Assembly (NCBI GenBank): GCA_021841005.1
Contig: JAKBVZ010000035.1
Span: forward strand, 1 to 64,000
Length of the DNA: 64,000 bases
Direction: 5' to 3'
Source of the DNA: Actinomycetes bacterium
GTDB lineage: Bacteria; Actinomycetota; Acidimicrobiia; Acidimicrobiales; JAMCPL01
In this document: positions 9,001-12,000 of the stretch, in pieces
Numbering within the stretch: position 1 is the first letter of the stretch
Layout: every line of letters starts with the position of its first letter
Made by a program: the position numbers

Positions 9001-12000
9001 CGGGCGCTATAGTCTCCGGTTCTGCTGGTACCGCCAAGGGCAAGATGGAGGCCCTTGGGGCGGCCGGAGTCAGGGTGGCCAAGAACCCCACGGAAGCAGG
9101 GGAGGTCATGGTGGAGATCGTGCATGGTCTCTGATCCGGTGTGTACGGCGTTGCCGGCCGGATGGGAGATGATTGGTTGGAAGGTTGCCGAGCATCTGCG
9201 TTGGCACGAGTATGACTAAGGGTATGAGCTGATGAGAGCGTTACTGTCGGTGTACGACAAGAGTGGCTTGGTGGAGCTGGCCGGAGGGCTGGTATCGCTT
9301 GGCTGGGATCTGGTGGCGAGTGGCGGTACCGCCAAGGCGCTTGCAGATGCAGGCATCATGCATAGCGATATAGCTTCGATGACCGGGTTCGGGTCGCTTC
9401 TTTCAGGCAGGGTGAAGACGCTGCACCCTGCAGTGCACGCAGGTATCCTTGCCGACAGGGACAATCCGGATCATATGAAAGATCTGGAGGAACAGGGGAT
9501 AGAACCGGTGGACTTGGTCGTGTGCAACCTCTACCCATTCGGCAGTGACCCTTCGATAGAGATGATCGACATTGGTGGACCTACCATGGTGCGGGCATCG
9601 GCCAAGAACTTTGCTCATGTCGGTATCATCGTGAGTCCACAGGACTACGGTCCTGTACTCGAGGAACTTGCCGGCGCCGGTAGGCTGTCGCTACAGACGC
9701 GCAGGAGATTGGCCCGGGCGGCATTTGCGCATACTGCAGCTTACGATGCTGCTATCGTGTCGTGGATCGATCAGGGGGGGCTGGAGAGCTCCGGCGCTGG
9801 TGGATGGGGTGGTCATAATGGCCATGATGCGGCGGAAGCGGCCGGCGCGGCTGGTGCAGGCGCTGGTGCAGGCGCTGGTGCAGGCGCTGGTGCAGGCGCT
9901 GAGGTAGGGACCGTTACTGCGATGGGTGCCGGCACGGTAGGGATTGGAAACCATGAGATCGCGGCAGGTCCGAGAAGCGAGCCAGGCGGGGTAAGCGAGT
10001 CACATCTGCCTCCCACTATCCACCTGAGCCTCGAGCTTGCCAGCAGACTTAAGTATGGGGAGAATCCCCACCAGCGCGGGGCGCGTTACCGTATTTACTC
10101 GAAACCAGGCTGGCTGGATACCACCGTGCAGCACGCAGGCAGGGAACTCTCTTATATCAATTTGTTCGATGCCGAGTCAGCCTGGTGGCTGGTCCACGAG
10201 CTGAAGAGCGCTGGAGCTTCTGGCGCAGGAAGTGGCAACGGCGGGGGTGTCGACGAGAGGAGTGGCATCGGTGGTGCTGGAAGCGGTAGCGGTGGGACAG
10301 AGGGTGGTTCCGCTACCGGGAACAGTAGTGGCGCCGGAACCGGGAGCGGTGACAGCAGGGGCGCCATTTCCACGGATACCGCGAGTATTGCGAGCGCCGT
10401 CATAGTCAAGCATGCCAATCCGTGCGGAGCAGCGCTTGGCAGTGATATGGCAGAGGCATACCGCCTTGCTCTCGAGTGTGACCCGATCTCGGCGTTCGGC
10501 GGGGTGGTCGCCCTTTCCGGTCATTGCGGGGTCGATGTGGCTGCAGCCATGGTGGACGCGCCACAGGCTGACGTGATCATTGCGTCCTCCTTTGATAGCC
10601 GGGCCATAGAGATGCTGGTGTCGAGGCGTAAGGCTACGAGGTTGCTGGAGTCGCCGCCTCCCGTTCGTTCACCCTTGGCTATACGTAGCCTGGGAGACGG
10701 CTTTCTTGTCCAGGATAATGACCTGGTTTCCCTGGATACTGAACGCTTCCAGGTTGTCACAGATATGGGGGTGCCTGATGGCGAATGGCCTGAAGTAAAG
10801 ATGGCCTGGATCGTCTGCGCCAGGACTACATCGAATGCGATTGTGGTGGTCAATCACGGCCAGGCGGTTGGTGTGGGAGCTGGCCAGCAGAGCAGGGTGG
10901 AAGCAGCAGAGATAGCAGTGAAGAAGGCGGGCGACAGGGCAGGGGGCGGGGTGGCTGCAAGTGATGCATTCTTTCCGTTCAGGGATGGTCTTGATGTGCT
11001 GGCCCGTGCCGGGGTCAGGGTTATTGTACAGCCGGGTGGATCGGTCAACGATGCGGCCATTGTCGAAGCGGCGAACGAACACGGTATAGCTATGGTGCTG
11101 ACCGGCGAGCGCCACTTCCGTCACTGACGCCTGGAACCGGCAGCCATCTCGGGGCGACTGGGGGACTGTGGCTTGTTAGTATGGGTGCACTATGACTGCG
11201 AAGATACTTGATGGGGAATCCCTGGCCACCAAGATCCGCGAAGAGGTTGCGAACGAGGCGGCCAAGCTGCGCGCCCGGGGGATAATTCCGGGTCTCGGTA
11301 CCATACTGGTAGGGGACGATCCACCATCTGCACGATATGTGGCCATGAAACATGCTGATTGCGCAGAGGTGGGCATTGAGTCGATTCACGAGCACTTGCC
11401 TGCAGATATTACTCAGGATGACCTCATGTCTGCGGTCGAGCGTTTCAATTCCGACACTCGGGTGCATGCCTACCTGGTCCAGCTACCCCTTCCTGCCGGC
11501 CTTGACGAGGAAGAGGTGTTGCTTTCGGTGGATCCTTCAAAAGATGTGGATGGGCTGCATCCGGTGAATCTGGGGTTGCTGGTCATGGGCCATCCAAGGG
11601 TGTTGCCATGCACGCCCGCTGGGATACTGGAATTGCTCAGCGCCAATGGAATAGACCTAGCGGGCCGCCATGTGGTCGTGGTGGGTAGGGGGCTCACTAT
11701 CGGCAGGCCTCTGGCTCTACTTGCAGCATTGAAGCGTCCAGGATGCAACGCTGCCGTGACGGTGGTCCACACGGGGGTACCGGACATGGCCGAACATGTA
11801 CGCAGGGCCGATATTGTCATCGCGGCGGCCGGCCATGCCGGCCTGGTGACGCGGGATATGATCAAGCCCGGAGCGGTGGTGGTCGGCGCCGGAACCTCTT
11901 GGGAAGGCCGCAAGCTGCTTTCGGACGTAGATGACGCAGTGAGCGAGGTGGCTGGGTGGATCACTCCGAGGATAGGTGGAGTAGGTCCGATGACGAGGGC

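What a model noticed while it worked through the whole genome (the two positions that open the first line are those of the whole stretch)
9232..11127. Proteome-wide loop inflation of housekeeping enzymes by slippage repeats
Core enzymes (PurH here, also PolA, PheT, GltD, AtpG, SufU, Era, UvrC, Alr, NuoG) carry 20-230-residue Gly/Ser/Asp/Pro/Thr-rich in-frame insertions in surface loops, often made of short tandem repeats and differing in length between sister species. We read this as a family-wide, still active insertion bias from uncorrected replication slippage in a lineage with neither NucS nor MutS, tolerated like the low-complexity inserts of Plasmodium. New would be a free-living bacterium with eukaryote-like inflation of about a fifth of its conserved proteins, and a natural map of insertion-tolerant loops.
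Evidence so far: 84 of 880 full-length Swiss-Prot matches have internal excess over 30 aa. Against orthologues of other Acidimicrobiales families, own protein longer by 30 aa or more in 32 of 145, shorter in 4; by 15 or more 44 versus 7; against family members the balance is even. PurH alignment shows two loops of species-specific length only in the family. Inserts: Gly 15.5 vs 9.2%, Ser 9.9 vs 6.5, Asp 9.2 vs 5.8; 19 of 36 orthologues of the 93%-identical G004 differ by indels of 3 aa or more. 88% of coding tandem arrays have periods divisible by 3, 340 genes hit. NucS 0 of 6, MutS 0 of 6 family genomes. No paper found.
(Added by a program. Inside this text positions count along the whole contig: contig position 1 is position 1 of the stretch shown here. 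"Call 12" and the like, gene names such as g00115 and contig names such as C1 are that model's own, and its searches are not shown. The text may have been shortened before it was handed on; [...] marks where a part breaks off. The agent that wrote the report below was given it as the finding of a first reader that could run no searches.)

Follow-up and report, generated by a model that had tools for sequence, protein, structure and literature searches.

The report
Genome-wide duplication pressure bloats bacterial enzymes

Summary
PurH is 631 aa against an order median of 505, with two loops predicted to be disordered. Against the nearest outside relative, 96 of 484 orthologues are at least 15 aa longer and 13 shorter; at 30 aa it is 63 against 3. 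So 'a fifth' holds at 15 aa, and 13% at 30 aa. C-terminal tails and intergenic spacers are inflated too. Long tandem arrays are about 13-24 times denser than in two controls, and densest outside genes. Recent events are mostly 6-24-bp duplications, often between short repeats. In genes they keep the frame, fall in the same loops in both genera, and drift (dN/dS 0.44 against 0.10 in cores). Two arrays differ in a near-identical strain. NucS/MutS loss is not the cause: MutS is missing order-wide, NucS also in uninflated relatives, and NucS does not repair indels. Better leads are the clade-wide loss of a standalone flap nuclease and the family-wide loss of DinB; neither is sufficient alone. Closest known cases are Borg repeats, Ehrlichia and Plasmodium. 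The scan noted similar inflation in other genomes (unchecked). Verdict: new variant of a known kind.

The parts
9232..11127 (+). purH (bifunctional AICAR transformylase / IMP cyclohydrolase), 631 aa, the type example
   Evidence: the model matches M. tuberculosis PurH 3ZZM/4A1O, TM(target) 0.86-0.89; invariant columns including K393-H394 are kept
9793..9996 (+). PurH loop 1 (residues 188-255), G/A/T-rich, at the junction of the two enzyme domains; length differs in every family member
   Evidence: pLDDT <50; alignment
9850..9901 (+). Perfect 12-bp x4.3 tandem array encoding a Gly-Ala run inside loop 1; G004 has one diverged unit, so the expansion is recent
10237..10377 (+). PurH loop 2 (residues 336-382), G/S-rich, just before the strand leading to the K393-H394 motif; 57 bp longer than in G004
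   Evidence: pLDDT <50
12024..12102 (+). 15-bp x5.3 perfect array in the C-terminal tail of folD (ORF 11192-12127; gene name from the sequence); G004 has an array of a different unit at the same place, and run X6 carries a third unit
21568..21664 (+). Insert and 18-bp duplication in lysA (20872-22245; +35 aa vs G026)
25015..25236 (+). 74-aa insert in homoserine dehydrogenase (24202-25758) holding four short duplications; the 12-bp one at 25192 has an extra copy in the near-identical strain of run X6
28345..28437 (+). 6-bp x15.5 array (Gln-Gly run) in a 2Fe-2S small subunit gene (28030-28770; label from its cysteine pattern); one unit shorter in runs X6, X9 and X11
60464..61564 (+). Open frame of shikimate dehydrogenase with a G/A/R-rich insert (+38 aa vs G026)

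Best explanation
This family has a genome-wide excess of short head-to-tail DNA duplications, likely made by strand misalignment during replication, and selection likely keeps only those that stay in frame and land in loops, linkers, tails or spacers, where they re-expand, decay and accumulate as largely neutral bulk.

Steps. (1) Shown: duplications of mostly 6-24 bp arise everywhere, densest outside genes. (2) Shown: many have the ABA-to-ABABA form with a short flanking repeat; inferred: misalignment. About a third have no such repeat, and a separate ~72-bp insert-plus-duplication element adds a few more. (3) Shown: survivors in genes are in frame, cluster in existing loops and are rich in Gly/Ser/Pro/Thr; inferred: purifying selection filters them. 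(4) Shown: inserts evolve at dN/dS 0.44, and most old ones have lost their repeat. (5) Inferred and weakest (about 0.3): the raised rate comes from poor 5'-flap removal in Okazaki-fragment maturation, as in yeast rad27 mutants. The wider clade has lost the standalone flap nuclease and NucS; the family has also lost DinB and carries a lengthened Pol I.
For: TRF arrays with score >=80 per Mb: G000 100, G004 64, G005 65, against G026 4 and G011 5. In G000, 587 per Mb non-coding vs 128 per Mb coding.

Stop-to-next-aligned-start distance in syntenic pairs: median 100 vs 12 bp; 96 longer and 12 shorter of 136. C-tails 79 longer vs 20 shorter of 484.

Of 566 G000/G004 indels >=6 bp, 272 have clean flanks. 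Of these, 73 are tandem, 36 duplication+filler, 17 of the 72-bp class, 6 in arrays and 140 unclassified; about 1-3% of random sites get a class. 121 of 130 coding ones are in frame vs 58 of 142 non-coding. Copies differ at 36 of 1,472 positions (2.4%) vs 8.6% between the genomes, so they postdate the split. 34 of 76 unclassified 9-40-bp indels resemble their neighbour at >=60% vs 4% by chance.

99 of 177 perfect two-copy duplications have >=3 bp extra homology, against about 10 expected. 27 of 40 coding indels lie in loops that make up 5.5% of the sequence; 11 of the other 13 are gains in G004. dN/dS is 0.10 in cores and 0.44 in inserts. Only 1 of 51 proteins >=70% identical to G026 is inflated.

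In run X6, one contig has 18 substitutions in 9.9 kb and two in-frame array changes. Standalone 5' nuclease: 22 of 22 outside the clade, 0 of 9 inside. DinB: 0 of 6 in the family vs 24 of 25 others. Pol I span 927-1,116 aa vs 856-919 (from the coordinates). rad27 signature: PMC5677150, passages.
Against: 140 of 272 clean indels have no strict duplication signature, and only 27 of 119 inserts against G026 still hold a repeat (control 10 of 314), so the origin of old inserts is extrapolated. The copy-identity test is biased because detection needs similar copies. Net gain could come from selection asymmetry (core deletions are removed) rather than mutation bias.

G026, G012 and G023 lack the flap nuclease and NucS, yet their PurH and Pol I are near normal. 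Seven DinB-less non-family genomes have PurH of 495-537 aa, not significantly longer (p=0.16), and G066 is 558 aa with DinB. The acidic motifs of the Pol I 5'-nuclease and the DnaE1 PHP motifs look intact. 58 of 177 duplications lack microhomology. There is no matched sister-species pair outside the family as an indel-rate control. The controls are partial genomes (1.2 and 0.4 Mb), and the gene calls come from my own script.
Confidence: 0.7

Rival explanations
1. Uncorrected slippage caused by loss of mismatch repair (NucS and MutS).
For: NucS 0 of 6 and MutS 0 of 6 in the family. Homopolymers >=8 are 13-25 per Mb vs 0.8-5 in the controls. ts/tv of 2.8 fits NucS loss.
Against: MutS is found in 0 of 31 genomes. 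NucS is also not found in 11 non-family genomes, 8 of which have full-length PurH of 501-521 aa. A nucS deletion left the indel rate unchanged, 18 vs 19 events (PMC7015689). Units of 3-5 bp are barely enriched compared with 6-18 bp.
Confidence: 0.05
2. A mobile hairpin element (about 35-bp insert plus about 36-bp target duplication) seeds the loops, as Rickettsia palindromic elements do.
For: 86 copies in G000, 23 of them in called genes. 17 of 272 recent indels are of this class. The Pol I insert holds a 78-bp array whose unit encodes the element.
Against: It is in 1 of 119 inserts against G026, and absent from 400 kb of G005, which is equally inflated. It makes 4 of 130 coding indels. Cas1 is in G000 only, 0 of 5 other family genomes.
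Confidence: 0.07
3. Ordinary mutation under weak selection (small effective population) lets slightly harmful insertions fix.
For: Small, patchy extreme-habitat populations are plausible (inference). Core dN/dS of 0.10, and 0.16 over all called genes, is not low. PurH and PheT lengths co-vary across the order (rho 0.41, n=108), which suggests a lineage-level dial.
Against: Drift in bacteria usually shrinks genomes through deletion bias (recalled). Coding indels are still strongly frame-filtered. Family branches in the PurH tree are not flagged as long. Tandem arrays are an order of magnitude denser in non-coding DNA as well.
Confidence: 0.13
4. The loops are adaptive (for example solubility, acid or metal stress, condensates), as proposed for Borg amino-acid repeats.
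For: Biased composition. The same sites are reused in two genera. Insert dN/dS is below 1.
Against: Sequences at shared sites are not alike, lengths differ in every species, spacers grow in parallel, and the nearest relatives manage without the loops.
Confidence: 0.05

Closest known systems
Borg tandem repeats and amino-acid tandem repeats (Schoelmerich et al. 2023, PMC9879509; passages read)
   Same: Pervasive, recent, independently arising tandem repeats. All in-ORF units are divisible by 3, against 14-38% of intergenic ones. They create disordered protein segments and vary within populations.
   Different: Borgs are extrachromosomal, their units are A-rich and near-perfect, and the host chromosome almost lacks repeats. 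Here it is a bacterial chromosome, units match genome GC (56.5%), core enzymes are hit, and most inserts are old and decayed.
Ehrlichia ruminantium tandem-repeat expansion/contraction (Collins 2005; Frutos 2006; seen only through PMC10710844 and PMC7343930 passages; the original was not held)
   Same: A bacterial chromosome with active tandem repeats and long intergenic regions.
   Different: An obligate intracellular, AT-rich pathogen whose repeats are described as targeted at non-coding regions. Here the organism is environmental and a fifth of conserved proteins are lengthened.
Plasmodium falciparum low-complexity inserts (PMC5389722 passages)
   Same: Insertion-biased indels (108 vs 56), in-frame survival in exons (13 of 15), low-complexity protein inserts.
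   Different: A eukaryote, with AT-driven 1-3-bp microsatellites and Asn/Lys runs. Here units are 6-24 bp, Gly/Ser-rich, and the net gain is about 3%.
Yeast rad27 (FEN1) duplication mutator (PMC5677150 passages)
   Same: Insertions exceed deletions; ABA-to-ABABA duplications up to about 100 bp; recurrent hotspots.
   Different: A laboratory mutant with no flap nuclease. The family keeps a Pol I 5'-nuclease with its acidic motifs, so the link is by signature only.
Rickettsia palindromic elements (PMC1166351 passages)
   Same: Repeats inserted in frame in genes (85 of 728 in ORFs).
   Different: One dispersed element family. Here nearly all inserts are local and unrelated to each other; only the minor hairpin class is comparable.
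General prokaryotic low-complexity regions (Persi et al. 2023, PMC10120016; first fifth of the text read)
   Same: Short-repeat dynamics in coding sequence.
   Different: There they mark young, fast families and fade, while housekeeping families largely lack them. Here they persist in core enzymes across two genera.

Membership tests
Coding tandem repeats / aaTRs (Borg type) | In-gene units divisible by three, intergenic ones less so | tested here: met
   247 of 262 vs 117 of 239; 210 of 218 vs 97 of 186
Coding tandem repeats / aaTRs (Borg type) | Copy number varies between close strains | tested here: met
   +12 bp at 25196 and -6 bp at 28383 in run X6; two events only
Coding tandem repeats / aaTRs (Borg type) | Products are disordered segments | tested here: met
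   Predicted, PurH only: pLDDT <50 at 188-255 and 336-382
Coding tandem repeats / aaTRs (Borg type) | Extrachromosomal host, near-perfect A-rich repeats | tested here: not met
   Core chromosomal genes; unit GC 56.5%; 27 of 119 inserts keep a repeat
Mismatch-repair-deficient microsatellite instability | The lost system repairs indels, and its loss tracks the phenotype | tested here: not met
   PMC7015689
Mismatch-repair-deficient microsatellite instability | Instability dominated by 1-4-bp units | tested here: not met
   594 indels >=6 bp vs 516 of 1-5 bp; unit spectrum; homopolymers are somewhat enriched
rad27/FEN1-type duplication mutator | Duplications between short direct repeats; gains exceed losses | tested here: met
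   99 of 177 with >=3 bp extra homology (partial copies of arrays also count); gains inferred from copy identity and 11 of 13 sites
rad27/FEN1-type duplication mutator | Loss of 5'-flap nuclease activity | tested here: inconclusive
   Standalone nuclease not found in 9 of 9 clade genomes, but also in the uninflated ones; the Pol I nuclease domain is kept; activity not testable
RPE-like coding mobile element | Inserts are copies of one dispersed palindrome | tested here: not met
   1 of 119 inserts; met only for the minor 72-bp class
PurH (ATIC) | Both domains, fold and conserved residues intact; activity | tested here: inconclusive
   Sequence and predicted fold met; expression and activity not testable

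The most novel reading that the evidence does not exclude
A free-living bacterial family has reversed the usual deletion bias. After stepwise loss of NucS, the standalone flap nuclease and DinB, it became a natural rad27-like duplication mutator whose genes, tails and spacers keep growing. It even inflates its own Pol I, RNase HI and DNA ligase, which could feed back on the rate.
Probability: 0.25. Interest if true: 0.8.

Novelty: new variant of a known kind. Interest (0 to 1): 0.55.

Why it matters
Bacterial genomes are thought to stay compact because deletions outnumber insertions (recalled). A family whose core proteins, tails and spacers have all grown, next to compact sisters, makes the cause testable by comparison: mutation spectrum against selection, and which replication gene matters. 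It also shows disordered segments arising from scratch in conserved enzymes. Because two genera filled the same loops with unrelated sequence, it gives a natural map of insertion-tolerant sites for protein engineering. In practice, such inserts break profile searches: family PheT gave no piece at E<=1e-60.

Tried and rejected
NucS/MutS as the cause: rejected. Broken DnaE1 proofreading: PHP motifs intact in 6 of 6 (motif roles recalled). NHEJ: Ku in 0 of 5 searched. Cas1 as a family-wide driver: 1 of 6. ExoVII, RNase T-type exonucleases, RecA, RNase HI and UvrD are present in family and sisters. A second UvrD-type helicase hit of G026 and G012 was not seen in the 3 family genomes searched (not followed up). 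DHH/RecJ 0 of 5, SbcD none over the cut-off, and HRDC 0 of 9 clade genomes do not separate family from sisters. DinB absence as a general predictor: 7 non-family genomes, p=0.16. A junction motif or hairpin preference at duplication sites: none (58 and 177 sites). My first indel classifier missed shifted duplications and was replaced. One search timed out. No RNA holder was listed. Runs X9 and X11 covered the stretch thinly, and the PurH array broke the X6 contigs, so its copy number could not be read. The 360 G026 genes without a G000 hit were listed but not annotated. Literature: 10 searches; none listed a paper on this family's inserts. Most subscription papers and all supplements were unseen.

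Full report
Setting. The window is contig C31:1-64000 of G000 (2.45 Mb, 36 contigs, 56% GC, 94% complete). The family has six genomes in two genera (G000-G005). In a PurH tree it is a clade with full support; G026 is its sister, then G012 and G023. Runs holding at least half of the sampled words are labelled mine drainage, mine tailings or sediment where a label is given; four studies remain after leaving out the possible source. 'Free-living' is an inference from that.

1. Observation. PurH is 631 aa. Family orthologues are 542-631 aa; 20 others are 496-526 aa. The excess sits in two loops whose length differs in every member. Across the order, 124 full-length non-family matches have median 505 and only G066 (558) reaches 540 (13 partial matches dropped). 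An AlphaFold model from 89 sequences is confident (mean pLDDT 83.6) except at residues 188-255 and 336-382. It matches M. tuberculosis PurH at TM(target) 0.86-0.89.

For the proteome I measured only the span between the first and last aligned blocks of reciprocal best hits (identity >=40%). G000 vs G026: 63 of 484 longer by >=30 aa and 3 shorter; 96 vs 13 at >=15 aa. G000 vs G011: 18 vs 0 of 131. G005 vs G026: 12 vs 0 of 77. G000 vs G005: 16 vs 17 of 229. G011 vs G026: 0 vs 2 of 75. Net gain is 2.8% of aligned residues. Inflated proteins include AcnA, Era, RNase HI, Hom, Mfd, SecA, MurA, LigA, Alr, SufU, GuaA, AtpG and LeuS (59 of the 63 were scanned, through their G026 orthologue). Pol I spans 927-1,116 aa in the family and 856-919 aa in the 22 others where both ends lie on one contig (from coordinates; G005 extrapolated by 40 aa). 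PheT is 931 aa against a median of 793 and a maximum of 877 in 117 full matches. Inflation rises with length (21 of 34 proteins over 600 aa) and almost spares the most conserved class (1 of 51). The Asp enrichment and the 19-of-36 figure were not reproduced.

2. What it is. The effect is genome-wide. Arrays scoring >=80 occur at 64-100 per Mb in the family and 4-5 per Mb in both controls. They are about 4.5 times denser outside genes. C-tails are longer in 79 and shorter in 20 of 484 proteins. In 136 syntenic pairs, the stop-to-next-aligned-start distance has median 100 bp vs 12 bp in G026 (this includes N-terminal extensions; G011 vs G026 gave 34 vs 18 on 20 pairs, so G026 is itself compact).

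G000 and G004 align at 91.4% over 676 kb (777 kb of G004 fetched). Of 566 indels >=6 bp, 272 have clean flanks: 73 tandem, 36 duplication plus filler, 17 of the ~72-bp class, 6 within arrays and 140 unclassified. Random sites get a class in about 1-3% of cases. Nearly half of the unclassified 9-40-bp indels resemble their neighbour (34 of 76 vs 4%). Tandem units are 3-24 bp, mostly 6-15. Copies differ by 2.4%, below the 8.6% between the genomes, so they are probably gains after the split (detection favours similar copies). In genes, 121 of 130 are in frame. In 161 conserved genes, 27 of 40 indels lie in loops covering 5.5% of the sequence, and 11 of the remaining 13 are G004 gains where G000 matches G026. 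Cores have dN/dS 0.10 and inserts 0.44. Of 20 G000 inserts in 66 three-way orthologues, 16 have a G005 insert within 20 aa, with no clear sequence likeness.

A near-identical strain (run X6; 18 substitutions in a 9.9-kb piece) differs by +12 bp and -6 bp in two coding arrays. Most scaffold gaps (8 of 12 by inspection) adjoin arrays. The process is therefore recent and probably ongoing, on small numbers.

3. How it works. Among 177 perfect two-copy duplications, 99 have >=3 bp of extra homology (about 10 expected) and 58 have <=1 bp; there is no junction motif or hairpin preference. Misalignment at short repeats explains most of them (inference).

MutS is in 0 of 31 genomes. NucS is missing in 17 of 31, including uninflated ones. 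In M. smegmatis, nucS loss raised substitutions about 40-fold and left indels at 18 vs 19 (PMC7015689, passages). NucS loss may explain ts/tv 2.8 (inference). DnaE1 proofreading motifs are intact.

Two other losses appeared. A standalone ~300-aa 5'-nuclease (FenA-like; name recalled) is in 22 of 22 genomes outside the clade and 0 of 9 inside. DinB is in 0 of 6 family genomes and 24 of 25 others, including all three sisters; it is in 131 of 141 in the wider sample. The spectrum resembles yeast rad27 mutants (PMC5677150, passages), and the family's Pol I, RNase HI and LigA carry inserts. But the sisters lack the nuclease without inflation, and seven DinB-less outsiders are not significantly longer. 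I commit to weak flap processing, worsened in the family, at about 0.3. The duplication-plus-filter model stands without it. The hairpin element reported earlier is real (86 copies) but minor: 1 of 119 inserts, and none in 400 kb of G005.

Milder cases exist elsewhere in the order. PurH and PheT lengths co-vary (rho 0.41, n=108, kin not independent). G066, which also lacks the standalone nuclease, has PurH of 558 aa and Pol I of about 942 aa. The family is the extreme of a gradient. The order-wide tallies include the unpublished genomes G048, G067 and G130; no conclusion depends on them.

4. Comparison. It works like Borg repeats (PMC9879509), Ehrlichia ruminantium repeats (seen second-hand) and Plasmodium inserts (PMC5389722). 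It is not a Borg, not mismatch-repair-type microsatellite instability and not an RPE-type invasion. Persi et al. (PMC10120016, part read) describe prokaryotic low-complexity regions as transient and rare in housekeeping families, which is what differs here.

5. Novelty. Ten searches listed no paper on this family. The mutation type is known. The scan's own notes report similar inflation in an ANME-1 archaeon, an alphaproteobacterium and others (unchecked), so it may be a recurrent state rather than a unique one.

6. Verdict. Observation confirmed; interpretation partly supported; new variant of a known kind; interest 0.55.

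Noticed in passing
window 12037-12137: Run X6, otherwise near-identical, carries a different 15-bp unit in the folD tail array, partly shared with a contig of run X12; G004 has a third unit. This looks like independent amplification at one site plus exchange of the tail by recombination.
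   Followed up: partly
G000 C15:23997-27455: Pol I carries a Gly/Ala/Glu-rich linker insert and a 78-bp x3.5 array whose unit includes the hairpin element read in frame.
   Followed up: partly
G000 C17:38488-39177: RNase HI is split by about 80 extra residues inside the catalytic domain (G005 also has an insert, about 20 aa from the match span).
   Followed up: partly
family plus G012, G023, G026: The clade lacks NucS, the standalone 5'-nuclease and any HRDC-domain protein (0 of 9 vs 22 of 22 for the last two).
   Followed up: partly
G066, G071, G043, G073: Other order members with lengthened PurH or PheT; possible milder or independent cases.
   Followed up: partly
G000 C33:7785-8624 and C19:2113-2949: Two cas1 genes in G000, none found in the other five family genomes.
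   Followed up: no
G000 C34:16310-19900: A DnaE2-type error-prone polymerase with a +142-aa insert is present although no Y-family (IMS) domain, and so no clear ImuB, was found.
   Followed up: no
window 19048-19122: Several runs have loose ends and joints at tRNA-Arg, suggesting an integration site with variable islands.
   Followed up: no
G000 C31:79102-79517: ARAGORN calls a second, permuted tmRNA besides the ordinary one on C16; probably spurious.
   Followed up: no
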